Translations under genes and position numbers: made by a program
Part shown: in pieces, positions 446 through 58,935 of the stretch
Layout: each line of letters opens with the position of its first letter
How positions within the stretch are numbered: position 1 is the first letter of the stretch
From: an uncultured Acidobacteriota bacterium
GTDB lineage: Bacteria; Acidobacteriota; Vicinamibacteria; Vicinamibacterales; UBA2999
Reading direction: 5' to 3'
Assembly (NCBI GenBank): GCA_963789815.1
Contig: CAWBMG010000013.1
Location: 729,569 to 793,568 of the forward strand
DNA length: 64,000 bases
The notes under the pieces: generated by a model
What the model saw: only the letters and a program-made list of their open reading frames with translations
What the model was told of the DNA's origin: nothing
Databases searched by the model: none

Positions 446-2542
446 GTGTGGCTTCGCGCGGCTGTCGTCGTCTTGTCCGGTGTGTTGGTGTACACCAATG
501 CACTCTCGGGACAGTTTCTCTTCGACGATGAGAATGCGATTGTCACCAATTCAACTATTCGGCAACTCCAGCCTCTGACTGTACCGCTCAGTCCGCCGCG
601 CGACACGCCGGTCGCCGGACGGCCGCTCGTCAATCTCACATTTGCGCTGAACTACGCAAGCACAGGCCTTGATGTGCGGGCTTATCGCCTGACAAATCTC
701 GCAGTGCATTTGTTAGCAGGTCTCGTGCTGTTCGGCATCGTTCGGCGCAGCTTGCTAGGGCCGAAGCTGGCGAGCCACTTCGGTGCGCAATCGCTCACGC
801 TCGCTTGGGCGTGTGCGCTCGTGTGGACGCTTCACCCGTTGAACACCGAAGCCGTGAACTATTTGGCGGAGCGGACAGAGTCTCTGATGGGTCTTTGCTA
901 TCTGCTGACCGTGTACTGCGCGATTCGCGGAGTGAAGGGGTCAGGGCTCAAGGCTCAAGGCTCAGGGCTCAAGGCTCAAGGCTCAGGGCTTAAGGCTCAG
1001 GGCTCCGGGTTGTCGGCGTGGGACTTTGCGGCGGTCTTGGCGTGCACGGCAGGAATGGCATGTAAGGAATCGATGGTGACCGCGCCCTTCATCGTGGCGT
1101 TGTACGACCGCGTGTTCCTGTTCGACTCGGTGAAGGACGCTGTTCGACGGCGATGGCATGTGTATGCGGGACTTGCCGCGTCGTGGTTAGTTCTGGCGCT
1201 GCTGCTGTCCGGACAGCCGCGAACATCAGCCGGGTTTGGGTCCGGGACTGATCCCTGGACGTACTTCCTGAATCAGATGGACATCATCGTCCGGTACCTT
1301 CGGCTGAGCGTGTGGCCCCAAGGACTCGTGCTCGACTACGGGCTCCCACAGTCGCTCACACTCGCCGATGTTGTGTGGCCGGCCGGGTTCCTGACCGCTC
1401 TGGGCTTGGCCACACTCATTGCAATCCGCTATAGGCCGTTCGTCGGGTTTCTCGGGGCATGGTTCTTCATTACGCTTTCCCCGACGTCGAGCTTCGTCCC
1501 GATTGCCACCGAGGTCGGTGCCGAGCGACGCATGTATCTACCGTTGGCGGGGCTCGTGGTGTTGGCGGTTGTCGGTTCGTACGCCCTCATTGCTGCGCGC
1601 GCCGGAAGACCCACAGTCGTCGCGCCCGCCTTGCCTCGACGAACCCGCGGAGACACACCCCTCGACGACGCTCGCGAAAGTCGACGGGGGGAGTCGAGGA
1701 GCAGTCGTAGCTCGAAGAGCGCCCGTGTCTCGACGCCTCCTATGGCCGTGGCAACACGCCTGGGGATCGGAGTGCTCGTGAGCGTGTGCGCGTTGCTCGC
1801 CAGTGGGACCATCGCTCGCAACCGAGAATATCGATCGCGTCTGTCGATGGCGCAGACCATCGTTGACAGGCGCCCGCACGGCCGCGCGCACTTTCTACTT
1901 GGATCGGAGTTGGTGTCGGCAGGAGAGCACGACCGAGCGATGGCGGAGCTGCGACTCTCGGCCCGCGACTACCCCGGAGCGCATTACGCCTTGGCCACGG
2001 AGCTTCTGTTCGCGGGCCAGCTCGACGAGACGATTACCCACGCGAAGGAGTTCATCCGCCAGAGGCCGAACGACTCCGCGGTGGTCCCGGCGCGCGAGTT
2101 GCTGGCGCGCGCGCTCGGCTCGAAGGGGGACCTCGACGGGGCAGCCGAACAGTTCGCTCTGATTGTTCAGCGGGTGCCTCAGCACGCCGTTGCTCAGGCG
2201 TCTCTCGGGGATATTCGCCTGCGACAGAGACGCCTGGACGAGGCCATCAGCCACTTCGAATCGGCTCTCAAAGTTCAGCCTACTGACTCGATTCTCCTGG
2301 GGAAGCTCGGTTTGGCACTGGCCCAGGCCGGAAGGATGAGCGAGGCGACAACGGTTCTCGAACGAGCCGTGGCGGGTCGGCCAGCCGACGTCGGTCTCGC
2401 GAACATGCTAGGGCAGGCACTTGCGGCCCAAGGGCGCTACGCCGAAGCTTTGACGTATCTTCGACGAGTGGTCCAGCTCCTGCCAGGTGACGCCCAAGCC
2501 GCCCGTAACCTCTCGGCGGCCGAGAGGTTGGCCACCAAGTAG
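446..2542 (+). CDS. TPR-repeat membrane protein with an N-terminal polytopic PMT_2/DUF1736-like glycosyltransferase-type domain
   Basis: In-frame GTG at 446 within ORF 11..2542, placed after the divergent hydrolase start. N-terminus VLVYTNALSGQFLFDDENAIV plus multiple TM segments. The C-terminal third carries TPR-like repeats (AHYALATELLFAGQLDE, AVAQASLGDIRLRQRRLDEAI). Start position is uncertain. Confidence 0.75.
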   Translation: MWLRAAVVVLSGVLVYTNALSGQFLFDDENAIVTNSTIRQLQPLTVPLSPPRDTPVAGRPLVNLTFALNYASTGLDVRAYRLTNLAVHLLAGLVLFGIVRRSLLGPKLASHFGAQSLTLAWACALVWTLHPLNTEAVNYLAERTESLMGLCYLLTVYCAIRGVKGSGLKAQGSGLKAQGSGLKAQGSGLSAWDFAAVLACTAGMACKESMVTAPFIVALYDRVFLFDSVKDAVRRRWHVYAGLAASWLVLALLLSGQPRTSAGFGSGTDPWTYFLNQMDIIVRYLRLSVWPQGLVLDYGLPQSLTLADVVWPAGFLTALGLATLIAIRYRPFVGFLGAWFFITLSPTSSFVPIATEVGAERRMYLPLAGLVVLAVVGSYALIAARAGRPTVVAPALPRRTRGDTPLDDARESRRGESRSSRSSKSARVSTPPMAVATRLGIGVLVSVCALLASGTIARNREYRSRLSMAQTIVDRRPHGRAHFLLGSELVSAGEHDRAMAELRLSARDYPGAHYALATELLFAGQLDETITHAKEFIRQRPNDSAVVPARELLARALGSKGDLDGAAEQFALIVQRVPQHAVAQASLGDIRLRQRRLDEAISHFESALKVQPTDSILLGKLGLALAQAGRMSEATTVLERAVAGRPADVGLANMLGQALAAQGRYAEALTYLRRVVQLLPGDAQAARNLSAAERLATK
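938..1012. repeat. in-frame 21-nt tandem repeat encoding (GSGLKAQ)x3 plus GSGL inside the TPR membrane protein
   Basis: GGCTCAGGGCTCAAGGCTCAA units read directly. The same GGGCTCAG/AAGGCTCAG motif forms the intergenic array at 15141-15259. Confidence 0.9.
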
Positions 2543-14157: not shown

Positions 14158-14334
14158 CAACTCCCGATTCCCAATTCCCAACTTCCAAGCCAGATGAAAC
14201 CACACGCTCGAATGGAGGCAATGGGAGTTGGACGAGCGAACAATTGGGAGTTGGACGAGCGAGCAATTGGCAGTTGGACTAGCGAAGTAGTTGGGAGTTG
14301 GACAAGCGAAGTAGTTAGGAGTTGGGTGTGGGTG
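14158..14334. repeat. CCAACTCCC/GGGAGTTGG family element: short left arm plus 4.5 tandem 23-24-nt units
   Basis: Units GGGAGTTGGACGAGCGAACAATT (14223), GGGAGTTGGACGAGCGAGCAATT (14246), GGCAGTTGGACTAGCGAAGTAGTT (14269), GGGAGTTGGACAAGCGAAGTAGTT (14293) and AGGAGTTGGGTG (14317). The opposing CCCAATTCCCAACTTCC arm is at 14158-14190. Confidence 0.9.
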
Positions 14335-15140: not shown

Positions 15141-15259
15141 AGGGCTCAGGGCTCAGGGCTCAGGGCTCAAGGCTCAGGGCTCAGGGCTCAAGGCTCAGGG
15201 CTCAAGGCTCGGACTCACGGCTTAGCCGGCTTAAGCCCTGAGCCGTGAGCCCTCAAGCC
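15141..15259. repeat. GGGCTCAG/AAGGCTCAG tandem array with an opposing CCCTGAGCC arm (hairpin element)
   Basis: About 9 tandem 7-8-mers at 15141-15211, then GCTTAAGCCCTGAGCCGTGAGCCCTCAAGCC. Same motif as the in-frame repeat at 938-1012. Confidence 0.9.
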
Positions 15260-17509: not shown

Positions 17510-17608
17510 AACTCCCAACCACTATCGCTTGTCCAACTCCCAACTCCCAATTGCCTTCGAGCGTCCTTGGGAGTTGGGCCAGCGTCAGAAGTTGGGAGTT
17601 GGAAGTTA
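17510..17608. repeat. CCAACTCCC/GGGAGTTGG family inverted-repeat element
   Basis: CAACTCCCAACC...GTCCAACTCCCAACTCCCAATTG is opposed by CTTGGGAGTTGGG...GTTGGGAGTTGGAAGTT. Confidence 0.9.
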
Positions 17609-17624
17609 GAACATCGCGGTCGCT

Positions 17625-21171: not shown

Positions 21172-21333
21172 GTGGATTCGAAGACTCGGTGTGATCTGTC
21201 AGTGTGGCGAAAGGGCGCTCTGCCGGAGTATACTCCCGGCCAATTGACGCCTAAGTCGGGCTCTCAGTCTGTCGGGGGAGCAGGGCCCATCGGGGCGAAC
21301 TCTACAGACCAGTATTCATTCAGGAGGGTCAGG

Positions 21334-24300
21334 ATGAGACGCGCACTCCGCGGATTATTCAGCGGGCTTGTCGTTGTGCTCCTAGCCGCCGACGCTTCAA
21401 TGGCGCAGGTGGGTTCCACATCTCAGATTAACGGTACCGTGCGGGATTCAAGCGGAGGTGTCCTGCCGGGTGCAACTGTCGTTGGTATCCAGACCGAGAC
21501 CGGATTTCGGCGAGAGTCTGTCACCGACACAAACGGGTCGTATACCTTGCCGAACCTACCGGTCGGTCCATACCGCCTGGAAGTGTCGCTCTCAGGGTTT
21601 CGGACTCTTTCGCAAACCGGCATCGTCCTCCAGGTCAACGCCAATCCGGAGGTCAACCTCGTACTGCAGTTGGGCGAACTGACCGAGACGGTGTCCGTCG
21701 AAGCCTCCACACCGCTCGTCGAGACTCGGAGCCCCGGCATCGGGGCGGTCATCGAGAACGAGCGTATCGAGGAGTTGCCACTCAACGGACGGAACGCGGC
21801 CGATCTCATCACGATCGCGGGCGCGGCGGTTCCCCTGCCCCAGCTCAACGCGACCAGCCGTAGCATGACGGGCGGTCAGGCTTACTCGGTCGCTGGCGGA
21901 CAGGGATTCGGTGTGGCATTCCTGCTCGATGGTGCCACGCACAATAACCCTTACGACAATTTGAACCTTCCGCTCCCGTTCCCCGACGCGCTCCAGGAGT
22001 TCCGGGTCGAGACCAGCTCGACTACGGCCAGCAACGGGATGCACTCCGGCGCCTCCGTGAACGTGGTGACGAAGTCAGGCACGAACCTCTACCACGGCGA
22101 CCTCTTCGAGTTCGTTCGCAACCACAGGTTCAACGCGACCAACCGCTTCAATCAGATCAACGCGACTACGGGCGAGCGCGCCGACGACGGTCTGAGCCGG
22201 AATCAGTACGGCGGCACGATCGGCGGGCCGCTCAAGACCGACAAGATCTTTTTCTTTGGCGCCTACCAGGGCACTCGGCTACGCGAGACCCCGGCCGACT
22301 TGTTCAATTTCGTGCCGACGGCCGCGATGCTCGCCGGCGACTTCACGCAGTACGCATCCGCGGGCTGTAATACTGGCGGCGCGGTGACCTTACGCGGGCC
22401 ATTCGCGGGCCTTGGCAACCGGATCGATCCGGCCAGGTTCAGCCCGGCGGCGCTGAAGATTGCCGCGCAACTGCCCACCACCACCGACCCGTGCGGCCGC
22501 GTCACATACAGCCGCAGCCGTCCGACGGACGAGCAGCAGTACATCGGCAAGGTGGACTTTCAGCTGAGCCAGAACCAGACGATCTTTGGTCGCTACATCA
22601 TGACCAACAACACGGTGACGCCGCCCCTCCAGCTGCAGCCCGAGAACCTCCTCGTGTCGAGTCTAGGAGGGGGTGAAAGGAAGGCCCACACCTTCACCGT
22701 CGGCGATACGTTGGTCTTGAGCAACAATACGGTCAACGCGATTAGATTCGCTTTCAACTACACCGACGTTCACCGCACGCACGAGCCGATTGGGTTCTCG
22801 GCGCCGGATCTGGGCATCAAGACCTTCAGCTATATCGAGGATTACCTGCTGGTCAACGTCCAGAATGGAGGCTTCCAGCTCGGCGGCGGTACCGAGAGCG
22901 AGGCTAGGTTCAAGACGCCGTCGTATCAGGTCAACGACGACCTGACGATGATCAAGGGGAATCACCAGTACGGCCTAGGCGCGAGCGTGGCGTTCTGGTC
23001 GTCCCTGTCACAGGCCAACGTGCGTTCGCCGGGTCAGTTCACGTTCAACGGCACGATCACCGGCTTGCCGCTCGCCGACTTCCTGACCGGCAGCCTCGCC
23101 CAGTTGATCCAGGCGACGCCCAACTCGCTCGACATGCAGCAGTTGTATCTCGGGCTCTACGCGCAGGACACGTGGAAGCTGTCGCCGAGGGCGACGCTCA
23201 ACTACGGCGTCAGGTGGGAGCCCGGACTGGCGCAGCAGATCAGGAACGGCGCAATTTACAACTTCAGCACCGACCGATTCCTGAAAGGCGAGAAAACGAC
23301 ACAGTACACGAATGCTCCTCCGGGATTCCTCTATCCCGGAGATCCGGGGTTTGTGAACGACAAGGCGGGCATGGAAGATCACTGGCTTCAGTTCTCGCCG
23401 CGGGTCGGGTTTGCGTGGGATCCGAAGGGTGACGGCCGGATGTCGATTCGTAGCGGCTATTCGCTGGCCTACGACTTCGTGAACGCGCAGTTCCATCTCA
23501 ACACATCGGTCGCGCCTCCCTTCAACGCCGAGGCTCGTGTCGACAACCCGGTCGGCGGCTTCGACAACCCCTGGCTCGGGACAGGCAATGAGACGTTCTT
23601 CCCGTTCACGACGGGTAAGGATTCGCCGTTTCCGTTGACCGGACCGTACATCTCGATTCCACCCGACATCGAGCCCCCACGCCAACAAACATGGAACATC
23701 GCCGTTCAGCGTCAGATCGGCGACAACCTGGCGGTGTCGGCAACCTACCTTGGCAGCTACTCCGATCGCCTGTGGAATGTCCTGTCGTTTAACCCGGGCG
23801 TCTACATTCCCGGGAATTGCACGCTGCAAACGCCCACAGGGCCTCAGACGTTCACTCCCTGTTCGACGAATGCGACGCTCAACAACCGCCGCAAGCTGAC
23901 GATGGCCAACTTCGAAACAGGCAAGTACTTGGGTGTTGTGGACGAGCACACCGCGCTTGGCGAGCAGAGGTATAACGGCATGCTTCTCAGCTTCCAGCGG
24001 CGCAGCGCCAATGGAGTCAGCCTCAACGCCAACTACACGCTGTCGAAGTGCAAGGGCCATCCCACTCAAGGTGGAACCACACCGAACGTTGGAAGCGGCT
24101 ACGTCAACCCCGACGACATCGACTACGACTATGGCTTCTGCGACCAGGACCGCCGGCACCTCTTCAACCTGACTGCGGGCGTCCAAACGCCGGAGTTCTC
24201 GAACGCAGGTCTCCGAGCCGTTGCCTCCGACTGGCGTGTGTCCGGAATCCTGCGGTTGTTCTCCGGCCGAGCGCTCAACGTCACGGTCGCGAGCGACCCG

Positions 24301-24666
24301 GCGCGGACCGGCATTGGCAACCAGCGAGCGAACCTCTCGGGCGATCCGTACGGCGACGGGTCGTACAACAACTTCCTCAACCCGGCGTCGTTCACGACGC
24401 CCGCGCTCGGCACGCTCGGTAACTTCGAGCGCAATTCGATCAACGGTCCGGTGCAGAAGGGCGTGGACCTGGCCGTCGTGCGGTCCTTCCGGTTCAATAA
24501 CACCCACCGCATCGAGGCGCGCATCGAATCGTTCAACGCGTTCAACTGGTTCGTTCCGGACAATATCAATCCCCTCGTCGTCAATCGCGACAACGTCTTG
24601 TTCGGACGAATCACAGCTGCAGGTGACCCGCGTATCATGCAGTTCGCGCTGAAGTACAGTTTCTAA
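21334..24666 (+). CDS. TonB-dependent receptor with carboxypeptidase-regulatory-like domain
   Basis: AGGAGG lies before the ATG at 21334. Signal peptide, then INGTVRDSSGGVLPGATVVGIQTETGFRRESVTDTNGSYTLPNLPVGPYRLEVS, a plug, a long barrel and a terminal aromatic residue (LKYSF). Confidence 0.9.
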   Translation: MRRALRGLFSGLVVVLLAADASMAQVGSTSQINGTVRDSSGGVLPGATVVGIQTETGFRRESVTDTNGSYTLPNLPVGPYRLEVSLSGFRTLSQTGIVLQVNANPEVNLVLQLGELTETVSVEASTPLVETRSPGIGAVIENERIEELPLNGRNAADLITIAGAAVPLPQLNATSRSMTGGQAYSVAGGQGFGVAFLLDGATHNNPYDNLNLPLPFPDALQEFRVETSSTTASNGMHSGASVNVVTKSGTNLYHGDLFEFVRNHRFNATNRFNQINATTGERADDGLSRNQYGGTIGGPLKTDKIFFFGAYQGTRLRETPADLFNFVPTAAMLAGDFTQYASAGCNTGGAVTLRGPFAGLGNRIDPARFSPAALKIAAQLPTTTDPCGRVTYSRSRPTDEQQYIGKVDFQLSQNQTIFGRYIMTNNTVTPPLQLQPENLLVSSLGGGERKAHTFTVGDTLVLSNNTVNAIRFAFNYTDVHRTHEPIGFSAPDLGIKTFSYIEDYLLVNVQNGGFQLGGGTESEARFKTPSYQVNDDLTMIKGNHQYGLGASVAFWSSLSQANVRSPGQFTFNGTITGLPLADFLTGSLAQLIQATPNSLDMQQLYLGLYAQDTWKLSPRATLNYGVRWEPGLAQQIRNGAIYNFSTDRFLKGEKTTQYTNAPPGFLYPGDPGFVNDKAGMEDHWLQFSPRVGFAWDPKGDGRMSIRSGYSLAYDFVNAQFHLNTSVAPPFNAEARVDNPVGGFDNPWLGTGNETFFPFTTGKDSPFPLTGPYISIPPDIEPPRQQTWNIAVQRQIGDNLAVSATYLGSYSDRLWNVLSFNPGVYIPGNCTLQTPTGPQTFTPCSTNATLNNRRKLTMANFETGKYLGVVDEHTALGEQRYNGMLLSFQRRSANGVSLNANYTLSKCKGHPTQGGTTPNVGSGYVNPDDIDYDYGFCDQDRRHLFNLTAGVQTPEFSNAGLRAVASDWRVSGILRLFSGRALNVTVASDPARTGIGNQRANLSGDPYGDGSYNNFLNPASFTTPALGTLGNFERNSINGPVQKGVDLAVVRSFRFNNTHRIEARIESFNAFNWFVPDNINPLVVNRDNVLFGRITAAGDPRIMQFALKYSF

Positions 24667-24698
24667 GACCTTCCCTGGGCGCGATCGCACTGACGATG

Positions 24699-25001
24699 GT
24701 CGGTGCGATCGCGCCGCTTGTCGGTGCAAATCTCCTAACGCGGTCGGTGCAATCGCACGGCTTGTCGGTGCAATCTGGCGCACGCGTGTTGGTGCAATTC
24801 CGCTGACGCTCGTCGGTGCAAGGCGAACCACTGACGCAGGTCGGTGCCATCTTGGCGCCGCGTGTCGGTGCGATCCGTCTCGCGTTTGGAGGTGCAATCC
24901 GGGTGCAATCGCGCAACTTGTCGGTGCTGTCCGACGTGGCATGTCGGTGCAAGCAGGCTGACGCCTGCTGGTGTAAGGGAACTAACGCTTGTCGGTGCCG
25001 C
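24699..25001 (+). repeat. tandem array of about 14 units, period 21-28 nt (two shorter), conserved core GTCGGTGCAAT
   Basis: Core starts at 24699, 24720, 24743, 24764, 24788, 24812, 24840, 24864, 24889, 24902, 24920, 24943, 24970 and 24991. The last unit encodes the final residues (GTDKR) of the adjacent gene. Confidence 0.95.
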
Positions 25002-25377
25002 GCTGCTTTCGGGCGACGTCCAGTCGATTGGCCCTGAGGCTGCCTATCGCGGCATACAGGCGGCGCGTCAGCGTTCGGATTGGGGCCAGTTCCTCTGCGG
25101 AGACGTAGCCCTTCAGCTGGGCGCTCCGCAGCGTGTCGGTCACCTCGTTCAGCGACCGGCGGGATACTTCCAAGAAGCGCGCGAACTCGCGCGGCGACTC
25201 GCACCCGAATCCCTCTGCAATATTGCGGCAGATCGAATCGATCGCGTCTTCGGCCTGGCCTCGATGTTTGAAGTCGCGTGAGAACTGTGGGCGCCGGGTG
25301 AACGCGAAAGCGGCAACTCTCAGCTCGTCGGCGAGCTGCCACGCGATGAGCTCCGTGTAGTGCCGCGCACCTGCCAT
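24982..25377 (-). CDS. four-helix-bundle protein (23S rRNA intervening-sequence protein family, PF05635/TIGR02436-like)
   Basis: YTELIAWQLADELRVAAFAF, AIDSICRNIAEGFG, REFARFLEVSRRSLNEVTDTL matches the family pattern (W-Q-x-A, NIAEG, F-L-x-x-S-x-x-S-x-x-E). Start could be M at 25377 or 25398. Confidence 0.8.
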   Translation of the reverse strand: MAGARHYTELIAWQLADELRVAAFAFTRRPQFSRDFKHRGQAEDAIDSICRNIAEGFGCESPREFARFLEVSRRSLNEVTDTLRSAQLKGYVSAEELAPIRTLTRRLYAAIGSLRANRLDVARKQRGTDKR

Positions 25378-25485
25378 ACGGAGGTGATGGCAGAACACAT
25401 GCCAATGGAACCGCGCGCTTCGTCAACAACTTGCGGCCACCATCGCGCAAAATCTCCAATCCCGCGGCGACCACGGTTGGCAGGT

Positions 25486-25716
25486 TTTGCACCAACAAGC
25501 GCTAGTTCAAATTGCACCGACCTGCGTCAGTGAATAGCACCGACAATTTGCAGGCTTGCACCGACAAGCAAGATAGATCGCACCGACGAGCAAGGTCAGC
25601 TTGCACAGTCTTCCGTCAGCCCGCTCGCACCGACATGCAACATCGGATCGCACCGACCAGCCGTGCGATTGCACCGACAAGTTGTGCGATCGCACCTGCT
25701 GCACGTCGGATCGCGC
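25486..25716 (-). repeat. tandem array of about 10 units of the same repeat in opposite orientation (ATTGCACCGAC on the plus strand)
   Basis: GCACCGAC-type cores at 25489, 25514, 25537, 25558, 25580, 25603, 25627, 25650, 25671 and 25692, spaced 21-25 nt. The array ends 1 nt before the MFS stop codon. Confidence 0.95.
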
Positions 25717-27090
25717 CTAGTGCGCTACGGTTACCTCTGCGCTTCTCTTGCCGATGTCTCGCCCCATCACATACATCAACGCGAATATCGTTATCGTCGA
25801 GATCAGAGCTGGAACAGCGGCGGCCAGGAAGAGCTGCTGCGGCCCCCATTGTCGTCCCAGTAGCACGCCGCCGATGTACGGCCCCACGATGGCGCCGATG
25901 CGTCCGACACCGAGCGCAGCGCCAATGCCGGTGGACCGGAGATACGTGGGATAAAACGTCGCTTCGAGCGTGTTCATGCCCGGCTGGCCACCGATCACGC
26001 ACCAGCCGGCGACGAAGACGATCACGCACAGCAGGCCGAGGCTGATGCCCGGCTGTCCGATGAAGGCGATGCTGAGGGTCGCGAGCGCAAATGTCAGCGT
26101 GAGCATCGGCAGGAATCCCCGGCGGGCGATGAGCCACGCCAGACCGAACGTGCCGATCGTGCCGCCGACCTGCAAGAGCGTTCCCACGAGCACCGCAGTC
26201 TGTGTGCTGTAGCCCATGCCGGTGACGACAGTGGGAAGCCAGTTGGAGAGAGAGTAGAGGTTCAGCAGGTTCATGAAGTTGACGATCCACAGTAGGACCG
26301 TGGCCAAGCCTCGTCCTTCCCGAAACAGATGAACGAGCGGCACACCGGCTCGGCTCGCCTCATTCGCGACGTAACGAGTCTTGGCGTCAACACGCATCGA
26401 AGGGTCGAGCTTTTTGAGCCAGCGCGCCAACTGGTCGAGCCGTGTCCTCCTGACCGCAAGAAACTGGAGCGACTCGGGCAAGCCCCAGATCATCGCCAAC
26501 GCGATGACGAGCGGGATCGAGCCGCCGAAAATGAACACCGAGCGCCAGCCGAACGCGGGAATCAACCACGCGGCGACGAATCCACCGATCGCCGCGCCCG
26601 CCGTGAACCCCACCGTGATGCACATGGTCAGCGTTACGCGGCTGCGCTTGGGGCTGAACTCGCCGACCAGTGCGGTGGCATTCGGGATGATGCCGCCGAG
26701 GCCCACGCCCGCAATGAGACGGATCCAGAGAAGTTGCTGAACGTTCTCCGCGAACGTGGTCACGATCGTCATGACCGAAAAGAACAACGTGGCGCCGATG
26801 AGGACCGGTCGTCGTCCGATTTTGTCGGACAGCATGCTGAATCCGATCGATCCAAACAGCACTCCGAGATTCCCCGCGGCGAAGACCGGGCCGAGCAGCG
26901 ATCCGGCGATTCCCCACTCGCGGATGACCGCGGGGGCTGTGTAGCCCAATGCCTGGACGTCGAAGCCGTCCATGATGAGGCACAGCATGCTGAGCGTGAA
27001 CACGCGCACGTGGAGAGGGCCGATCGGGCTGTTTTCCAGAATCTCGCTGAGATTGACCGTTTCGGCCGCGCGGCCCGGCGTGTTCATCAT
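25717..27090 (-). CDS. MFS transporter, aromatic acid:H+ symporter (PcaK/AAHS-like)
   Basis: DGFDVQALGYTAPAVIREWG, LSDKIGRRPVL and 12 TM segments fit the AAHS family pattern. Confidence 0.85.
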   Translation of the reverse strand: MMNTPGRAAETVNLSEILENSPIGPLHVRVFTLSMLCLIMDGFDVQALGYTAPAVIREWGIAGSLLGPVFAAGNLGVLFGSIGFSMLSDKIGRRPVLIGATLFFSVMTIVTTFAENVQQLLWIRLIAGVGLGGIIPNATALVGEFSPKRSRVTLTMCITVGFTAGAAIGGFVAAWLIPAFGWRSVFIFGGSIPLVIALAMIWGLPESLQFLAVRRTRLDQLARWLKKLDPSMRVDAKTRYVANEASRAGVPLVHLFREGRGLATVLLWIVNFMNLLNLYSLSNWLPTVVTGMGYSTQTAVLVGTLLQVGGTIGTFGLAWLIARRGFLPMLTLTFALATLSIAFIGQPGISLGLLCVIVFVAGWCVIGGQPGMNTLEATFYPTYLRSTGIGAALGVGRIGAIVGPYIGGVLLGRQWGPQQLFLAAAVPALISTITIFALMYVMGRDIGKRSAEVTVAH

Positions 27091-32247: not shown

Positions 32248-32255
32248 TCGTGACA

Positions 32256-32335
32256 AATCCCAACTCCCAACTCCCAATTCCCAAAAGTCGGGGTGGGCCC
32301 TGCTTGGGCGTTGGAGGTTGGAAGTTGGGAGTTGC
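32256..32335. repeat. CCAACTCCC/GGGAGTTGG family inverted-repeat element
   Basis: AATCCCAACTCCCAACTCCCAATTCCC is opposed by GGAGGTTGGAAGTTGGGAGTTGCC. Confidence 0.9.
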
Positions 32336-35267: not shown

Positions 35268-35372
35268 GATTTACGAATCGACGAATTTACGTATTTACGA
35301 ATTGATTGGAGAATTCGCCAGCGACGCATTTCATCGCGATTCGACGATTCGTAGATTCGTCAATTCGTCAAT
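35268..35372. repeat. ACGAAT/ATTCGT family inverted-repeat element overlapping the 3' end of the TPR-like gene
   Basis: TTACGAATCGACGAATTTACGTATTTACGAATTG is opposed by CGATTCGACGATTCGTAGATTCGTCAATTCGTCAAT. Confidence 0.85.
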
Positions 35373-41315: not shown

Positions 41316-42593
41316 ATGGATATGGTCGATCGCGTTAAGAAGATCTGCCTTTCGCCGCAGACCGAGTGGTCCGTGATTGCCACGGAGACCACGCCGACGG
41401 CGAGCCTGATTACGGGTTACGTTCTGCCGCTCGCGGGCGTCGGTGCCGTTGCCGGACTCATCGGACGGTCCCTCATCGGAATGAGCCTACCGTTCATAGG
41501 GACCTACCGCACGCCGCTCGGCACCGGACTCGCACTCGCGTTGTTCGCCCTTGTCAGCGCGGTCATCGGCGTCTTCTTGATTTCGATAATCATCAATGTC
41601 TTGGCGCCGAATTTCAGCGCCGAGAAGAATAGCGACCAGGCCATGAAAGTGGCGGTGTACTCGTTCACACCGGCATGGGTCGCAGGCATATTCCAGATCC
41701 TGCCGGCGCTCGGGATCCTCGCCATCCTTGGCGCACTGTACGGCCTCTACCTGCTGTACCTCGGTCTTCCACGACTGATGAAGTGTCCCGAGGACAAGGC
41801 CATTGGCTACACAGCCGTCGTCGTGATCTGCGCCATCGTGGTGAGCGTGGTTCTCGGCGCTGTCAGCGCCGCGATTGTCGGCACAGGCATGGTGGCCTCG
41901 GGCGGGCTGACGGGTGCGCTCGGCGGGATCACCGGCGGCGCGGTCGGCGGTTCGGTGGCGTCGAGTCCAGAGCTTCAGGTCGACCCGAATAGCACGCTCG
42001 GCAAGTTGCAACAGCTCGGCAAAGGGCTCGAGGAGAGCGCAAAGAAGGCCGAGGCGGCGGAGAAGCGCGGCGACACGAATGCACAGGTGGCGGCGGGCCT
42101 TGAAGGACTCGGCGCGCTCCTTGGTGGGGGCAAGCGAGTCGATCCCATCGACATCGCCCTGCTGAAGCCACTCGTGCCCGACACATTCGCGGGTCTTCCC
42201 AAGACGAGCAGCAGCGCGGAGAAAACCGGCATGGGCATCATCATGGTGTCGAAAGCCGAAGCGACCTACGGTGATGGTGCCGAACGGCAAGTCACGCTCG
42301 AGATCACCGACACGGGCGGTGTGAGCGGCTTGATGGGACTCGCCAGCTGGATGGGCGTGCAGGAAGACAAGGAAAACAGCGACGGGTACGAGCGAACGCA
42401 AAAAGTGGACGGACGTTTGACCCACGTCAGGAGCTCCAAGAGCGGCGACGACGAGTTCGCGGTCGTCATCGGTGAGCGCTTCATGGTCGGCGCCAAGAGC
42501 CGATCGCTTGACGTGAATGCGTTGAGGACCGCGGTGGCCGGACTCGACCTTGGCAAGCTGGAAGCGATGAAGGATGTGGGAGCGCAGAAATAG
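41316..42593 (+). CDS. Yip1-domain membrane protein with a long C-terminal soluble extension
   Basis: ICLSPQTEWSVIATE N-terminus and five TM segments typical of Yip1/DUF1282. Roughly 210 aa of hydrophilic C-terminus. Confidence 0.75.
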   Translation: MDMVDRVKKICLSPQTEWSVIATETTPTASLITGYVLPLAGVGAVAGLIGRSLIGMSLPFIGTYRTPLGTGLALALFALVSAVIGVFLISIIINVLAPNFSAEKNSDQAMKVAVYSFTPAWVAGIFQILPALGILAILGALYGLYLLYLGLPRLMKCPEDKAIGYTAVVVICAIVVSVVLGAVSAAIVGTGMVASGGLTGALGGITGGAVGGSVASSPELQVDPNSTLGKLQQLGKGLEESAKKAEAAEKRGDTNAQVAAGLEGLGALLGGGKRVDPIDIALLKPLVPDTFAGLPKTSSSAEKTGMGIIMVSKAEATYGDGAERQVTLEITDTGGVSGLMGLASWMGVQEDKENSDGYERTQKVDGRLTHVRSSKSGDDEFAVVIGERFMVGAKSRSLDVNALRTAVAGLDLGKLEAMKDVGAQK

Positions 42594-42704
42594 ATCATTG
42601 ATGATCGATGATTGATGATCGATGATATTGATTGATGATCGATGATATTGATTGAGACGTCGATGACAATCATCGTTCATCAATCATCGTTCATCGATGA
42701 TTTT
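42594..42704. repeat. GATGATCGATGA family element (tandem roughly 20-nt units, then the opposing ATCATCG arm)
   Basis: GATGATCGATGATATTGATT appears twice plus partial units at 42594-42655. This is opposed by CAATCATCGTTCATCAATCATCGTTCATCGATGA. Confidence 0.9.
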
Positions 42705-42706
42705 TC

Positions 42707-42850
42707 TTAGCCGTTCGGTGCGACGCGCCGAAGATTTGAGCCAGTTCTTCTGCGTCGAACAAGCTGAGTGTCTGGCAGTCCTTGGATAAATCGAATGGAG
42801 AGGTCTGCGAACGCATCCGTGCGATTTTGAAGCTCGTCGGCTTTGCTCAT
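42707..42850 (-). pseudogene. truncated remnant of a four-helix-bundle (IVS-protein family) gene
   Basis: MSKADELQNRTDAFADLSIRFIQGLPDTQL matches the family N-terminal pattern L-x-x-R-T-x-x-F-A-x-x-x-I-x(5)-L-P-x-T. It then degenerates and stops after 48 codons at the repeat array. Codon GC3 is weak, and the region is visibly lower in GC than its neighbours. Confidence 0.4.
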
Positions 42851-42981
42851 GCCGAGAAGCAGGCAACGCAAATGCCAGACAGTCGGAGCAACCTGAAACC
42901 GTGCGATCACTCACCGATTCAAGGATGATGCGATCCCCCAATGCTCCGATGTCGCAATCAATGCTCAAATCATGCGGTTCC

Positions 42982-43030
42982 CGATCATCAATTCTTCAAT
43001 CATCAATCATCGTTCATCGATCATCGATGG
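42982..43030. repeat. ATCATCG/GATGAT family array (single orientation)
   Basis: GATCATCAATTCTTCAATCATCAATCATCGTTCATCGATCATCGATG read directly. Confidence 0.85.
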
Positions 43031-45658: not shown

Positions 45659-45788
45659 CAACTCCCAACTTCCAACTACTGGCGCTTGACCAACTCCCAA
45701 TGGCGCTTGACCAACTCCCAACTCAATTCGAATCAGAGCGAAGGGTTTTGGAGTTTTTGGAAGTTGGCAATTTGGGAGTTGGGAGTTA
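45659..45788. repeat. CCAACTCCC/GGGAGTTGG family inverted-repeat element with internal 21-nt tandem
   Basis: TGGCGCTTGACCAACTCCCAA appears twice, opposed by TTGGAAGTTGGCAATTTGGGAGTTGGGAGTT. Confidence 0.9.
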
Positions 45789-47318: not shown

Positions 47319-48629
47319 ATGAAGATCCTCTCGATTACGGCGGGCGCGGCGGGGATGTACTGCGGGAGTTGTTTTCGGGACAATGCGCTCGCCGCCGAGC
47401 TGATGTCGCGGGGCCACGACGTCACGCTTGTCCCCGTTTACACGCCGACGCGCACGGACGAGCCCAACGTGAGCCAGCGTCGCGTGCTCTTTGGCGGCAT
47501 CAGCGTGTACCTGCAGCAGCATTCTCGCTTGTTCCGGCGGCTGCCGCGCGTCGTGGATCGAATGTGGGACGCCCCCGGCGTCATCAAGGCATTTGCCAAC
47601 CGGTCGGCCACGACCGACCCGACGCTGCTCGGCGATCTCACGATCTCCACGCTGCAGGGCAAAGACGGCGTCCTTGGCCGCGAGTTCGAGAAGCTCGCGG
47701 AGTGGATGCGGGACGAGCCTGTGCCAGACGTCATCAACCTCCCGAACTCGATGCTCATCGCCCTGGCGGCGCCGCTGCGTGAAGCCTTCGGACGCCCGGT
47801 GTGCTGCACGCTCCAGGGCGAAGAGCTGTTCTTGAACGGCTTGCACTCGCCCTATCGTGAACGCGCCATTGAGTTGATCCGCAGTCACGTACCACACGTC
47901 GACCGCTTCATCGCCGTCAGCGACTACTGCGCCAGGTTCATGGCCGAGTTCCTTCGCATCCCCGAACGCCGCATCTCGGTCGTGCCACTCGGCATCAATG
48001 TCGCCGGCTACGAGCGACGCCAGAGCGAGAGCGACACGTTCCGCGTCGGCTACTTCGCCCGTGTCTCGCCGGAGAAGGGCTTGCATGTGCTGGCCGACGC
48101 GTACGTCCGACTCCGGCAGCGCGCACCGAAGGCGCGAATGCGACTGGATGCGGCCGGGTACATCTCGCCCGCGCAAGAAGGCTATTTGACCGACGTTCGC
48201 GGTGTGCTCGAGCGGGCGGGGCTGGGCGGAGAGTTCACCTATCGCGGCGAGATCGACCGGGCCCACAAGATCACGTTTCTTCAAGGCCTGGATGTGCTTT
48301 CGGTTCCCGCCACCTACGATGAGCCGAAGGGCATTTTCCTGCTGGAGGCGATGGCGTGCGGTGTCCCAGTCGTTCAGCCTCGGCGTGGCGCGTTTATCGA
48401 GATCGTCGAACGCACAGGTGGCGGCGTACTGGTGCGACCAGACGATCCAGCCAGTCTCGCGGACGCGTTGTACGATCTCGCGCAGGATCGCGTGAAGACG
48501 ACGGCGTTGGGCCAGCTCGCCTTCGACGCGGTGCACGCGCGCTACACGATCGCGAAATCCGCAGACGAGTTGCTCGACGTGTATCGTGGCGTTACATCAT
48601 CGATGATCGATGAACGAATGACCGGATGA
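47319..48629 (+). CDS. GT4-family glycosyltransferase (GT-B fold)
   Basis: MKILSITAGAAGMYCGSCFRDN N-terminus. C-terminal EPKGIFLLEAMACGVPVV (E-x7-E-type motif). Confidence 0.85.
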   Translation: MKILSITAGAAGMYCGSCFRDNALAAELMSRGHDVTLVPVYTPTRTDEPNVSQRRVLFGGISVYLQQHSRLFRRLPRVVDRMWDAPGVIKAFANRSATTDPTLLGDLTISTLQGKDGVLGREFEKLAEWMRDEPVPDVINLPNSMLIALAAPLREAFGRPVCCTLQGEELFLNGLHSPYRERAIELIRSHVPHVDRFIAVSDYCARFMAEFLRIPERRISVVPLGINVAGYERRQSESDTFRVGYFARVSPEKGLHVLADAYVRLRQRAPKARMRLDAAGYISPAQEGYLTDVRGVLERAGLGGEFTYRGEIDRAHKITFLQGLDVLSVPATYDEPKGIFLLEAMACGVPVVQPRRGAFIEIVERTGGGVLVRPDDPASLADALYDLAQDRVKTTALGQLAFDAVHARYTIAKSADELLDVYRGVTSSMIDERMTG

Positions 48630-48713
48630 AATCATCGATGAACGATGATCGATGATCGGATGATTTTTCATCGATGATTTGAGATCAATCATCGGTCATC
48701 GTTCATCGTTCAT
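48595..48713. repeat. GATGATCGATGA family element overlapping the glycosyltransferase 3' end
   Basis: CATCATCGATGATCGATGAACGAATGACC ... ATCATCGATGAACGATGATCGATGATCGGATGA ... CAATCATCGGTCATCGTTCATCGTTCAT. It encodes the terminal SSMIDERMTG of the GT. Confidence 0.9.
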
Positions 48714-49414: not shown

Positions 49415-49729
49415 ATGGCTGTTGCGCCCGCCGATCTGCTCGTGCTCATCAGAGAAGGGCGTCCCCCAGTCGTTCTCGACGTGCGCTCTGATGCGGAATT
49501 CGCGCAGGGCCACGTCCCTGGCGCGATCCATATTCCGTTCTGGCAGTTACCTCGTCGGGCGAATGACATCCCGAGCCGCCATGGCGATCCGGTCGTGGTG
49601 TACTGTGGACACGGGCCGCGCGCGTGGTATGCGGCGGCGGCGTTGCGCCGGTGCGGCTTCGAGCGTGTTCAGCTTCTCGAGGGCCACATGTCGCAGTGGA
49701 AGCGCGCTGGCCTTCCAGAAGAGCGTTGA
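49415..49729 (+). CDS. rhodanese-like domain protein
   Basis: VLDVRSDAEFAQGHVPGAIHIP and the active-site loop VVYCGHGPRA. Confidence 0.85.
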   Translation: MAVAPADLLVLIREGRPPVVLDVRSDAEFAQGHVPGAIHIPFWQLPRRANDIPSRHGDPVVVYCGHGPRAWYAAAALRRCGFERVQLLEGHMSQWKRAGLPEER

Positions 49730-49743
49730 CTCAGGATGGACGC

Positions 49744-51025: not shown

Positions 51026-51072
51026 GGCGTCATGCGACCCACAAGTGCCCCCCAGGTCGGTCGCTGAGACAC

Positions 51073-54576: not shown

Positions 54577-54652
54577 CTAGGTTGCTAGGTAGCTGGGTAG
54601 CTGGGGTGTTTGGGAGTTGGACAAGAATTAGTTGGGAGTTGGGAGTTTCCGA
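54577..54652. repeat. TAGCTGGGTAGCT and GGGAGTTGG motif block
   Basis: GCTAGGTTGCTAGGTAGCTGGGTAGCTGGGG followed by TTTGGGAGTTGGACAAGAATTAGTTGGGAGTTGGGAGTT. Confidence 0.9.
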
Positions 54653-55921: not shown

Positions 55922-55925
55922 ATCA

Positions 55926-56010
55926 ATTCCCAACTCCCAAACGGCCCAACTCCCAAACAGCTTGGGAGTTCTTGGGCGTTGGACAAGCATGAGTTGGGAG
56001 TTGGGAGTTG
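55926..56010. repeat. CCAACTCCC/GGGAGTTGG family inverted-repeat element
   Basis: ATTCCCAACTCCCAAACGGCCCAACTCCCAAAC is opposed by CTTGGGAGTTCTTGGGCGTTGGACAAGCATGAGTTGGGAGTTGGGAGTTG. Confidence 0.9.
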
Positions 56011-58885: not shown

Positions 58886-58935
58886 CGCTCCCACTCCAAA
58901 ACTACTGACGCTTGACCAACTCCCAACTCCCAAAC
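58886..58935. repeat. CCAACTCCC family, single-orientation copy
   Basis: CTCCCACTCCAAAACTACTGACGCTTGACCAACTCCCAACTCCCAAAC. It shares the GCGCTTGACCAACTCCCAA unit with 45659-45788. Confidence 0.85.

What the first reader, a model, noticed from the sequence alone, without database searches (positions are those of the whole stretch)
24699..25716. Two inverted arrays of a roughly 21-25-nt repeat (core GTCGGTGCAAT) enclose a four-helix-bundle gene of the 23S rRNA intervening-sequence protein family
The whole 1 kb between the TBDR stop and the PcaK-like MFS stop is one structured unit.
- Arrays: about 14 repeat units run in one orientation (24699-25001), then the 131-138-aa four-helix-bundle gene lies on the minus strand, then about 10 units run in the opposite orientation (25486-25716).
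- Unit structure: each unit has a conserved 11-nt core and a 10-14-nt variable tail, so cores recur about every two helical turns.
- Cross-arm similarity: individual units are nearly identical between arms. GTCGGTGCAATCGCACGGCTT at 24743 matches the reverse complement of 25658-25678 at 20 of 21 positions. The neighbouring units ...GTCCGACGTGGCAT and ...GCAGGCTGACG also have counterparts.
- Coding overlap: the last left-hand unit supplies the final codons of the gene.

This protein family was first seen as the ORF inside 23S rRNA intervening sequences. There it sits in the loop of a long stem formed by terminal inverted repeats that RNase III cleaves. This locus has the same stem-loop-with-ORF topology outside any rRNA gene, but the stem is built from iterated short units.

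The alternative reading is iteron- or centromere-like arrays of protein-binding sites flanking the gene promoter. I know of no description of either arrangement.
Basis: partly seen in the sequence, partly recalled or inferred. Interest (0 to 1): 0.8.

Follow-up and report, generated by a model that had tools for sequence, protein, structure and literature searches.

The report
Avd-like gene nested in cognate repeat arrays
A small four-helix-bundle gene of unknown function sits between two mirror-image arrays of a short DNA motif that the protein itself most likely recognises; the same layout recurs, with different motifs, across many relatives in soil Acidobacteria, and this gives the protein family its first testable function.

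Summary
Window 24678-25716 is one palindromic unit. About 14 units with core GTCGGTGCRA lie on one side and 10 inverted units on the other, around a 131-aa PF05635 gene (24982-25377, minus strand).

- **Conservation:** 46 related loci had enough flank to judge. 37 have both arms, 9 have one and none has neither, always in the same polarity.
- **Inheritance:** at the same TBDR-MFS site in ten genomes the element is inherited vertically. dN/dS is 0.05-0.16, and the gene has inverted at least twice.
- **Expression:** a sigma-54-like motif (GG-N10-GC) lies 26-28 nt upstream of the ATG. The gene's own mRNA therefore starts inside the arms and is probably leaderless.
- **Recognition:** a core variant (G7 to C, in both arms) co-occurs 11/11 with a His-to-Asp change at one loop residue, and it arose twice.
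- **Generality:** five other PF05635 lineages, including a decayed copy at window 42694-42910, sit inside inverted arrays of different short units. Arrays without a gene also occur.

Best reading: an Avd-like protein paired with its own repeat family, in the manner of REPIN-RAYT but without a transposase. An RNase III stem, as in rRNA intervening sequences, is neither excluded nor supported. I found no published description.

The parts
24678..25716 (.). The whole palindromic element. It fills the spacer between the TBDR stop (24666) and the MFS stop (25717). Its termini are GGCGCGATC ... GATCGCGCC.
   Evidence: The syntenic element in L002 has the same boundaries.
24678..25001 (+). The arm downstream of the gene. 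It holds about 14 units of 21-28 nt, with core GTCGGTGCRA read on the + strand. Of these, 12 have up to 2 mismatches and 2 are degenerate.
24982..25377 (-). Four-helix-bundle protein gene of 131 aa (PF05635/TIGR02436, pI 10.1). The last six codons and the stop lie in the innermost repeat unit.
   Evidence: Structure model pLDDT 89.7; best PDB matches are 2GSC, 2RLD and the DGR Avd.
25390..25404 (-). Sigma-54-like -24/-12 motif TGGCATGTGTTCTGC (GG-N10-GC). The first G is 26 nt upstream of the ATG, which predicts a leaderless or nearly leaderless mRNA.
   Evidence: only 8 such motifs occur in the window on both strands, and 2 of them sit at -26 of the two PF05635 genes; 71/78 related loci match at least 7 of 8 positions, and 59/78 have the motif at -26 to -28.
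25447..25490 (-). Two dyad-like motifs related to GCAG-N3-CTGC: GCAAAACCTGC at 25490-25480 and GGAGATTTTGC at 25457-25447. They lie between the array and the promoter and are candidate activator (UAS) sites.
   Evidence: Family-wide, at least 7 of 8 positions match in 50/60 loci against 0/60 shuffled, clustered about 54 and 88 nt upstream of the GG.
25486..25716 (-). The arm upstream of the gene. It holds 10 units with core GTCGGTGCRA read on the - strand.
42593..43028 (-). A second, decayed element of the same kind. A truncated and frameshifted PF05635 gene (42694-42910) has GGCATTTGCGTTGC at 42876-42863, 26 nt upstream of its ATG (42850). It is flanked by GATGATY-type heptamer arrays at 42593-42696 and 42982-43028.
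   Evidence: The homologues P0121 and P0122 match PF05635 at E=1e-4 and 4e-3. jackhmmer gives E=1e-16 and 5e-11 for the two fragments.

Best explanation
The locus is a self-contained module of a protein and its cognate repeat.

**What it is.** A basic, Avd-like four-helix-bundle protein (PF05635) is encoded at the centre of a palindromic array of its own recognition sites. Solved relatives of this protein are homopentameric rings.

**How I think it works.**
- The gene is transcribed from an internal sigma-54-type promoter, with dyad sites upstream, as a leaderless mRNA that runs into the downstream arm.
- The protein recognises the 10-nt core GTCGGTGCRA, which recurs every 21-25 nt in both arms. 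It also recognises orphan, gene-less back-to-back arrays of the same unit elsewhere in the genome.
- A residue at the N-terminal cap of helix 3 reads base 7 of the core. This residue is usually His and follows the NIAEGFG loop.
- Many protein particles bound side by side would coat the arms and could bridge them.
- The likely consequences are control of the hairpin- or cruciform-prone intergenic arrays, blocking of read-through from the convergent neighbours, and feedback on the gene's own promoter.

**Wider pattern.** This module is one of many parallel pairs in Vicinamibacterales. Each PF05635 subfamily is nested in inverted arrays of its own short unit. The pairs are inherited vertically and kept by selection, and the inverted arms recombine and flip the gene.

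**Shown:** the anatomy, its conservation, vertical inheritance, purifying selection, the inversions, the promoter-like motif, the co-variation of residue and base, and the generality across subfamilies.

**Inferred:** that the protein binds the core, whether the target is DNA or RNA, sigma-54 dependence, and the physiological effect.
For: **1. Association.** Of 46 related loci with at least 400 nt upstream and 300 nt downstream, 37 have 3 or more cores upstream and 3 or more inverted cores downstream. Nine have one arm and none has neither. Polarity is always the same. A logo from about 1170 units gives 1.5-1.9 bits at the 8 core positions and less than 0.6 bits in the spacers.

**2. Selection.** At the shared TBDR-MFS site, identities are 66-75% for the TBDR, 72-76% for the MFS and 57-66% for the four-helix-bundle protein. 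The TBDR and protein trees are congruent. dN/dS is 0.05-0.16 where dS exceeds 1, yet the non-coding core stays invariant.

**3. Co-variation.**
- Eleven loci carry GTCGGTCC in both arms, and all eleven have Asp at residue 62.
- In the 68 loci with the GC core that residue is His in 64, Asn in 2, Tyr in 1 and Pro in 1, and never Asp.
- It is the only alignment column that separates the two groups perfectly.
- The change arose twice: in a clade of 10, and in L141, which is nested among His/GC relatives.
- His with G and Asp with C are classic base-contact preferences (established knowledge).

**4. Generality.**
- The decayed second copy in this window and its relatives L204-L206 are flanked by GATGAT-type heptamers.
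- L207-L210 have other units, with arms 80-92% complementary.
- L032, found by the DNA pattern alone in a gammaproteobacterium, has a PF05635 gene (E=4e-30) followed by nine copies of GCACCGAC.

**5. Orphan arrays.** Gene-less arrays with the same polarity occur in L007, L019, L042, L065 and L149.

**6. Fold.** The model has pLDDT 89.7. The nearest solved structures are 2GSC, 2RLD and the RNA-bound DGR Avd. The protein has pI 10.1.

**7. Promoter.**
Against: - No binding was measured. The co-variation rests on two independent events, and gene conversion between arms could contribute to both arms changing together.
- The window's own protein has Pro, not His, at residue 62, yet it keeps the GC core.
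- The family has no recognised DNA-binding motif, and Avd is described as binding RT and RNA.
- Orphan arrays and the many other hairpin arrays in the window show that arrays can exist without a nearby gene. The gene might therefore merely prefer such sites.
- The -12 element reads TGA rather than TGC in two distant subfamilies, L207 and L210. The sigma-54 assignment is therefore not secure.
- No physiological role is demonstrated.
Confidence: 0.5

Rival explanations
1. An IVS-like RNA element. A transcript spanning both arms folds into a long stem with the ORF in the loop, and RNase III cleaves the stem, as in 23S rRNA intervening sequences.
For: - Folded as one strand, 24690-25720 forms 172 inter-arm pairs, with z of -13.6 on the + strand and -12.0 on the - strand.
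- Distant subfamilies have near-perfect mirror-order arms.
- Unit numbers in the two arms correlate (rho 0.66, p=2e-4).
- The Coxiella IVS has a 28-bp terminal stem cut by RNase III, an S23p ORF in the loop and heptamer repeats before the ORF (PMC4990558).
Against: - The conserved promoter-like motif lies inside the arms, 26-28 nt from the ATG. The gene's own mRNA therefore holds one arm only.
- Gene orientation relative to the neighbours flips between lineages, and about half of the upstream neighbours are divergent.
- In this subfamily there is no excess of spacer complementarity in mirror register.
- Conservation sits in a 10-nt core rather than in pairing.
- There is no Rfam match and no rRNA context.
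Confidence: 0.15
2. A selfish foldback or MITE-like element. The arms are terminal inverted repeats and the four-helix-bundle gene is the element's own factor for spread or maintenance. The gene-less hairpin arrays are non-autonomous derivatives. This is the REPIN-RAYT logic with a different protein. It overlaps with the best explanation, because it also needs the protein to recognise the repeat. It differs in making spread, rather than host function, the reason the element exists.
For: - The elements lie in many unrelated contexts: 37 singleton flanks and about 15 small synteny groups.
- Gene-less arrays of the same unit and polarity exist.
- There are about 14 hairpin arrays in 64 kb of this window.
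- Decayed copies exist: window 42694-42910, and L204-L206 with an in-frame TGA.
- IVS elements have long been suspected to be mobile (PMC4990558).
Against: - No transposase, recombinase or RT lies in or next to the element. PADLOC and PHROGs give no hit.
- No target-site duplication is seen at the termini (reading).
- No empty site was found: all ten syntenic loci carry the element, which has been inherited vertically across 25-35% protein divergence under strong purifying selection.
Confidence: 0.25
3. The arrays are generic intergenic hairpins, acting as terminators or mRNA stabilisers like REP/BIME elements, that this genome uses everywhere. The four-helix-bundle cassette merely inserts into, or survives in, hairpin loops and has no specific relation to the repeat.
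For: Hairpin arrays of several unit types fill many intergenic spacers in the window, right up to the stop and start codons. They fold with z of -2.8 to -6.9. Gene-less GTCGGTGC arrays lie between convergent genes, for example L007.
Against: - Each subfamily is tied to its own unit over long divergence.
- A protein residue co-varies with a core base.
- The core is invariant while the spacers drift, which is not what a pairing-only element needs.
Confidence: 0.1
4. The upstream array is the enhancer of the sigma-54 promoter and is bound by an AAA+ activator. The downstream array is a by-product of duplication and inversion.
For: Sigma-54 promoters need upstream activator sites. The innermost unit lies at a nearly fixed distance from the start codon, with a mode of 112-113 nt.
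Against: - Separate dyad motifs, GCAG-N3-CTGC at about -54 and -88 from the GG, already occupy the usual UAS position.
- Arrays are equally conserved downstream, and they also occur with no promoter or gene at all.
- The co-variation is with the four-helix-bundle protein, not with an activator.
Confidence: 0.07

Closest known systems
23S rRNA intervening sequences that carry an S23p ORF (Leptospira, Coxiella, Xanthomonas and others)
   Same: The protein family is the same (PF05635). The ORF lies in the loop between terminal inverted repeats. The Coxiella IVS also has tandem heptamer repeats (GACAGAT), variable in number, just upstream of the ORF (PMC4990558).
   Different: - This locus is not in an rRNA gene.
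- Its arms are 230-320 nt, built from 10-14 iterated units with an invariant core, rather than a 28-bp stem.
- The gene has its own internal promoter-like motif and is under purifying selection, whereas the Coxiella ORF is decaying and apparently not expressed.
- RNase III processing is untested here.
REPIN-RAYT systems (REP sequences and their REP-associated tyrosine transposases)
   Same: A single gene is flanked by inverted copies of its cognate repeat. Gene-less inverted pairs that form hairpins are scattered through extragenic space. Each protein lineage has its own repeat. Inheritance is vertical (the description of REPIN-RAYT is from my own knowledge; the features of this locus come).
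   Different: The protein is a non-catalytic four-helix bundle, not an HUH/Y1 transposase. The repeats are multi-unit arrays rather than single REP palindromes. No evidence of copying was obtained.
Avd, the accessory protein of diversity-generating retroelements
   Same: Homologous fold: Foldseek matches 8UB7 and 4DWL with TM-score 0.69-0.73. The L032 relative also matches the bAvd Pfam model. Both proteins are basic, and Avd is pentameric and binds nucleic acid (PMC10053308).
   Different: There is no reverse transcriptase and no template/variable repeat pair nearby. Sequence identity is about 10%. The partner here is an array of short repeats.
Iteron or centromere arrays bound by small proteins (ParR-parC of plasmid R1; omega protein and its heptad arrays on pSM19035)
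   Same: Many short direct or inverted repeats flank a promoter and are bound cooperatively by the small protein encoded next to them. Unit lengths of 7-11 bp or about two helical turns are shared (my own knowledge).
   Different: Those binders are ribbon-helix-helix proteins on plasmids and work with partition or toxin-antitoxin genes. Here the fold differs, the locus is chromosomal, the arms enclose the gene, and orphan arrays are dispersed.

Membership tests
PF05635 / TIGR02436 four-helix-bundle (23S rRNA IVS protein) family | Sequence match above the curated cut-off | tested here: met
   PF05635 scores 69.3 bits (cut-off 33.8) with E=3.7e-19. TIGR02436 scores 64.5 bits (cut-off 24).
PF05635 / TIGR02436 four-helix-bundle (23S rRNA IVS protein) family | Four-helix-bundle fold resembling solved members | tested here: met
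   The model has pLDDT 89.7 and four long helices. The best PDB matches are 2GSC (TM-score 0.78/0.87) and 2RLD. PDB sequence search finds 2GSC at E=4.9e-6.
PF05635 / TIGR02436 four-helix-bundle (23S rRNA IVS protein) family | Homopentameric ring | not testable with these tools
   Only a monomer could be modelled. Solved relatives are pentamers: 2GSC and 2RLD each have chains A-E, as does Xanthomonas S23p (PMC4990558).
rRNA intervening sequence (IVS) element | Inserted in a helix of a 23S (or 16S) rRNA gene | tested here: not met
   The element lies between a TonB-dependent receptor gene and an MFS transporter gene. There is no Rfam match in 24400-26000 at E up to 1.
rRNA intervening sequence (IVS) element | Terminal inverted repeats able to form a stem around the ORF | tested here: met
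   172 predicted inter-arm pairs, z of -13.6.
rRNA intervening sequence (IVS) element | Excision of the stem-loop by RNase III | not testable with these tools
   This needs RNA end mapping. The internal promoter-like motif argues that the gene's own mRNA lacks one arm.
Diversity-generating retroelement (Avd component) | Adjacent reverse transcriptase and a template/variable repeat pair | tested here: not met
   The neighbours within about 10 kb are aromatic-catabolism enzymes, a TBDR and an MFS transporter. There is no RT. The only repeats are the short-unit arrays.
REPIN-RAYT | Gene flanked by inverted cognate repeats, with gene-less inverted pairs dispersed in extragenic space | tested here: met
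   The gene-less pairs are in L007, L019, L042, L065 and L149. A genome-wide count was not possible.
REPIN-RAYT | The protein is an IS200/IS605-like Y1 (HUH) transposase | tested here: not met
   The only Pfam hit is PF05635.
Transposon / MITE / foldback element | Target-site duplication and presence/absence polymorphism | tested here: inconclusive
   No direct repeat is seen outside the termini at 24678 and 25716. All ten syntenic loci carry the element. Closely related genomes were not available.
Sigma-54-dependent promoter | GG and GC separated by exactly 10 nt, within the TGGCAC-N5-TTGC consensus, at a fixed position | tested here: met
   The window has TGGCATGTGTTCTGC. 71/78 loci match at least 7 of 8 positions, and 59/78 have the motif at -26 to -28. 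Two distant subfamilies read TGA at -12.
Sigma-54-dependent promoter | rpoN and a cognate AAA+ activator; transcription start about 12 nt after the GC | not tested
Dyad motifs in the UAS position are present.
CRISPR array | Repeats of 23-50 nt separated by unique spacers of similar length, usually with cas genes | tested here: not met
   The conserved part is 10 nt and the variable part is 11-15 nt, with its own weak consensus (CTGACGC). There are two inverted arrays and no cas genes.

The most novel reading that the evidence does not exclude
PF05635 proteins, including the enigmatic ORFs of rRNA intervening sequences and the ancestors of DGR Avd, are a large family of sequence-specific binders of short iterated repeats.
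- Each lineage is paired with its own genome-wide family of hairpin-forming arrays and is encoded in the loop of a master copy.
- This would be a second kind of repeat-guardian partnership, independent of REPIN-RAYT and built on a non-enzymatic pentameric ring.
- The recognition code would be simple and readable: His for G and Asp for C at the cap of helix 3.
- It would also explain a large share of the intergenic DNA of Vicinamibacterales.
Probability: 0.35. Interest if true: 0.9.

Novelty: categorically new. Interest (0 to 1): 0.8.

Why it matters
- **An old unknown becomes testable.** The 23S rRNA IVS protein family has had no function since its ORF was first seen in the early 1990s. It is very common: 2,899 clusters at 50% identity are reachable from this one protein. 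Its only studied member, Avd, is an accessory to a reverse transcriptase. A cognate DNA or RNA motif, with a candidate specificity residue, turns that unknown into a direct experiment.
- **Link to the classical IVS.** The result ties the stem, the ORF in the loop and the heptamer repeats of the classical IVS to a chromosomal system that is under selection.
- **Abundant intergenic arrays.** It suggests what the short-unit hairpin arrays in these soil bacteria are organised around.
- **Possible tool.** If the binding is confirmed, the protein could serve as a compact, programmable repeat binder.

Tried and rejected
1. **Translated C-terminal tail.** Homologue tails read RTD-x5 repeats, which suggested that the downstream array is selected to be translated. 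Stop-codon density in that frame is the same in the untranslated upstream arm (1.30 against 1.50 per 100 codons). I treat the tail as incidental read-through.
2. **Register-specific stem in this subfamily.** There is no excess spacer identity on the mirror diagonals.
3. **Known RNA family.** No Rfam match at E up to 1.
4. **Simple promoter and terminator scan.** No intrinsic terminator was found. The only sigma-70-like site lies inside the TBDR gene.
5. **Defence or phage protein.** PADLOC and PHROGs give nothing.
6. **DGR.** No RT is present.
7. **Whole-collection DNA pattern scan.** Per-genome counts were therefore not possible, and the source genome did not appear.
8. **Exact look-up of the window protein.** It failed although its cluster exists.
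9. **Second gene by Pfam or PDB.** Scans of the raw fragments at 42694-42910 found nothing. The gene was confirmed only through the homologues P0121 and P0122.
10. **Further genes in held loci.** Searching the flanks of about 200 loci found no additional PF05635 genes except in L032. No PF05635 gene lies next to the pure (GTCGGTGC)n arrays of a Verrucomicrobium.
Full report
**The observation**

Window 24678-25716 is a single palindromic unit. It fills the whole spacer between the stop codon of a TonB-dependent receptor gene (21172-24666, +) and the stop codon of an MFS transporter gene (25717-27090, -).

- The 11-mer GTCGGTGCAAT, with up to one mismatch, occurs 15 times in the 64-kb window. 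All 15 are in the two arms. Chance expectation is 1.3 and the maximum in 100 shuffles was 5.
- With the 8-nt core there are 12 clear and 2 degenerate units on the left, read on the + strand. There are 10 on the right, read on the - strand. Spacing is 21-28 nt.
- Individual units match across the arms: 33 nt at 94% and 62 nt at 84%.
- Between the arms, on the minus strand, lies a PF05635/TIGR02436 gene. Its real start is the ATG at 25377, giving 131 aa and pI 10.1. Its last six codons and stop lie in the innermost left unit.

**Conservation**

A protein search found 343 relatives, those named being from Acidobacteria or Vicinamibacterales. The first three contigs fetched all showed the same layout. 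One was syntenic and one lay in a different gene context.

A metagenome scan then gave 80 loci at 51-73% identity.

- Of the 46 loci with enough flank, 37 have at least 3 cores upstream in the gene's orientation and at least 3 inverted cores downstream. Nine have one arm and none has neither. No locus has the opposite polarity.
- A logo from about 1170 units shows a near-invariant GTCGGTGCGA (1.5-1.9 bits at eight positions), a weak CTGACGC before it, and free spacers.
- Most homologues end in RTD-x5 repeats, which is the downstream array read in frame. Stops are no rarer in that frame than in the untranslated upstream arm. I take the tail to be incidental.

**Inheritance and inversion**

Ten loci share the TBDR-element-MFS arrangement.

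- Identities to the window are 66-75% for the TBDR, 72-76% for the MFS and 57-66% for the four-helix-bundle protein.
- The TBDR tree and the four-helix-bundle tree have the same clades. The element has therefore sat at this site since before these lineages split.
- dN/dS of the gene is 0.05-0.16 in pairs where dS exceeds 1. The protein is thus under purifying selection, and the non-coding core has stayed constant over a span in which neutral sites are saturated.
- The gene points towards the TBDR in four of the ten loci and away from it in six. On the tree this needs at least two inversions. A second synteny group shows both orientations as well.
- Recombination between the inverted arms is the simplest cause (inference).

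**How the gene is expressed**

- Alignment of the 5' regions shows an invariant GG and TGC separated so that GG-N10-GC holds (consensus GGCAY-N6-TGC). 71 of 78 loci match at least 7 of 8 positions.
- The first G lies 26-28 nt before the ATG in 59 of 78 loci.
- In the window the motif is TGGCATGTGTTCTGC at 25404-25390.
- Only eight such motifs exist in the whole window on both strands. Two of them sit exactly 26 nt before the ATGs of the two PF05635 genes present.
- This is the geometry of a sigma-54 -24/-12 promoter (established consensus TGGCAC-N5-TTGC). It would place the transcription start at or within 2 nt of the ATG, giving a leaderless mRNA. No Shine-Dalgarno sequence is evident.
- A dyad GCAG-N3-CTGC occurs about 54 and 88 nt upstream of the GG in 50 of 60 loci, against 0 of 60 shuffled. 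That is the usual place for activator sites.
- Sigma-54 dependence itself is an inference. Two distant subfamilies read TGA at -12.

**Evidence that the protein reads the core**

- Eleven loci carry the variant core GTCGGTCC (G7 to C), and they carry it in both arms.
- All eleven proteins have Asp at one position, two residues before the conserved EF that follows the NIAEGFG loop. This is residue 62, the N-terminal cap of helix 3 in the model.
- The 68 loci with the GC core have His (64), Asn (2), Tyr (1) or Pro (1, the window) at that position, and never Asp.
- It is the only alignment column that separates the two groups perfectly.
- On the protein tree the change arose twice: in a clade of ten, and in L141, which is nested among His/GC relatives.
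- His with G and Asp with C are textbook base contacts.
- Two events are few, and gene conversion between arms could help both arms change together. Even so, this is the kind of signal expected if the protein contacts base 7.
- The model (pLDDT 89.7) is closest to 2GSC and 2RLD, and then to DGR Avd in its RNA-bound complex. The solved relatives are pentameric rings (PMC4990558).

**Generality**

1. The window holds a second, decayed PF05635 gene at 42694-42910 (-).
   - I first suspected it from memory, and Pfam and PDB scans of the fragments found nothing.
   - A homology search then found P0121 and P0122, which match PF05635 at E=1e-4 and 4e-3. jackhmmer links both window fragments to them at E=1e-16 and 5e-11.
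   - This gene and its three relatives are flanked by GATGAT/ATCATC heptamer arrays.
2. Four distant subfamilies (35-50% identity to each other and to the window protein) were fetched.
   - Each gene is enclosed by inverted arrays of yet other short units: CGTTCGN, GGGTTCN/GGGTGCN and GGTTCTT.
   - The arms are 49-85 nt and 80-92% complementary in mirror order.
3. A locus found purely by the DNA pattern, in a gammaproteobacterium (L032), has a PF05635 gene (E=4e-30) followed by nine copies of GCACCGAC.
4. The published Coxiella IVS has tandem heptamer repeats, variable in number, right before its S23p ORF (PMC4990558).

**Arrays without a gene**

- In Vicinamibacterales genomes the same unit also forms back-to-back inverted arrays with nothing between them (L007, L019, L042, L065, L149). 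All have the same polarity as around the gene. Single-orientation arrays occur too.
- The window itself has about 14 intergenic hairpin arrays of other units: CCAACTC/GGGAGTTG, AGGGCTC, GATGATC and ATTTACGA. They often fill the spacer from a stop codon to the next start, and they fold with z of -2.8 to -6.9.

**Interpretation**

The best-supported reading is a module of a protein and its cognate repeat. An Avd-like protein is encoded in the centre of a palindromic array of its own sites. It is expressed from an internal sigma-54-type promoter. It binds the iterated core in both arms and in orphan arrays.

What the coated arrays do is inference. Candidates are organising hairpin- or cruciform-prone DNA, blocking read-through from convergent neighbours, and feedback on the gene's own promoter.

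The rivals stand as follows.

- **IVS-like RNase III stem.** Folding supports it. The internal promoter, the flipping orientation and the lack of register-specific pairing in this subfamily count against it. It cannot be settled without RNA data.
- **Selfish foldback or MITE-like origin.** This is compatible with the many contexts, the orphan arrays and the decayed copies. However, no enzyme, target duplication or empty site was found, and the element is old and under selection at this site.
- **Plain hairpin terminators with an incidental gene.** This is contradicted by the subfamily-specific units and by the residue-base co-variation.
- **Enhancer role for the upstream array.** This is made unnecessary by the dyads, and it does not explain the downstream or orphan arrays.

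**Comparison with known systems, and novelty**

- The protein is a member of PF05635 by every feature that could be tested.
- The locus is not an rRNA IVS, because it is not in an rRNA gene. It is not a DGR, because it has no RT and no template/variable repeats. It is not a REPIN-RAYT system, because it has no Y1 transposase. It is not a CRISPR array.
- In logic it most resembles REPIN-RAYT. In topology it most resembles the IVS.
- Full-text searches for the family names together with repeats, inverted repeats or these bacteria found no description of the arrangement. Subscription-only literature was not searched.
- I rate it as a kind of system not yet described, with binding still unproven.

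Noticed in passing
window 941-1009, 14158-14325, 15141-15253, 17533-17611, 32254-32334, 35269-35369, 45659-45787, 48596-48713, 55924-56010, 58916-58933: Many intergenic spacers consist almost wholly of inverted arrays of 7-8-nt units: CCAACTC/GGGAGTTG is the commonest, followed by AGGGCTC/GAGCCCT, GATGATC/GATCATC and ATTTACGA/TCGTAAAT. They run from the stop codon of one gene to within about 12 nt of the next start. They fold into long hairpins (z -2.8 to -6.9). The CCAACTC hairpins have the C/A-rich arm first, which is the opposite polarity to the GTCGGTGC elements.
   Followed up: partly
window 42593-43028: A decayed second PF05635 gene (42694-42910, -) has lost its middle part and is frameshifted. 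It keeps GGCATTTGCGTTGC 26 nt upstream of its ATG and lies between GATGATY-type heptamer arrays.
   Followed up: yes
L204 748-981; L205 548-781; L206 507-740: Relatives of that second gene all carry an in-frame TGA at the codon where the family has a conserved Trp (ESVF*L, ECVY*P). In L205 and L206 the frame continues into a normal C-terminal helix. This could be shared decay or recoding of TGA.
   Followed up: no
window 53133-53200 and 54569-54647: Nested inverted arrays, CAACTTC plus CCCAGCTA on one side and CTGGGTAG plus GGGAGTT on the other, lie 1.35 kb apart. The first pair sits in frame inside a 1650-codon ORF (49624-54576) that appears to fuse an MFS part and a permease part. Either a gene boundary is hidden there or the repeat is tolerated inside a coding region.
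   Followed up: no
window 14218-14325: An array of 4.6 copies of a 23-24-nt unit, GCAATTGGGAGTTGGACGAGCGAA. The GGGAGTTGG heptamer motif is embedded as a core with a spacer, which is the same core-plus-spacer design as in the finding. A CAATTCC/CAACTCC run at 14158-14186 faces it.
   Followed up: no
L032 2900-3520 (Wenzhouxiangella sp., JBGTLI010000346.1): A gammaproteobacterial PF05635 gene (E=4e-30; it also matches the bAvd model) is followed at once by nine copies of GCACCGAC and four of CACCGAC. Upstream lies GCGTCGGTGCGGCAGTGCGG. This is the same octamer as in the Acidobacteria, here as a pure 8-nt repeat.
   Followed up: partly
L022 2564-2675; L069 3967-4110 (Verrucomicrobium sp. BvORR034): Pure tandem arrays of the octamer GTCGGTGC, 14 and 18 copies, lie in intergenic DNA at two loci of one genome. 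No PF05635 gene lies within about 1 kb.
   Followed up: partly
L149 1171-1706 and 3146-4563; L001 2484-2628 and 3504-4540: A single locus can hold both a gene-less array and a gene-carrying element of the same unit in neighbouring spacers. In L149 they lie on either side of the MFS gene.
   Followed up: partly
all related loci (L124-L203): Unit lengths that are multiples of three (21 and 24 nt) are over-represented: 76% of downstream spacings and 59% of upstream spacings. There is nevertheless no sign of selection for an open frame. This is unexplained; it may reflect amplification of particular units.
   Followed up: partly
L199, L191, L193 arrays: In loci with the variant core GTCGGTCC, the innermost unit next to the gene on either side often still has the ancestral GTCGGTGC. 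This suggests that the arrays grow or are homogenised from the outside.
   Followed up: no
window 12364-33870: The element sits in a cluster of aromatic-compound catabolism genes: LigB-type dioxygenase, two FAA-hydrolase-family genes, a cupin dioxygenase, metallo-beta-lactamase-fold genes and a PcaK-like MFS transporter.
   Followed up: partly
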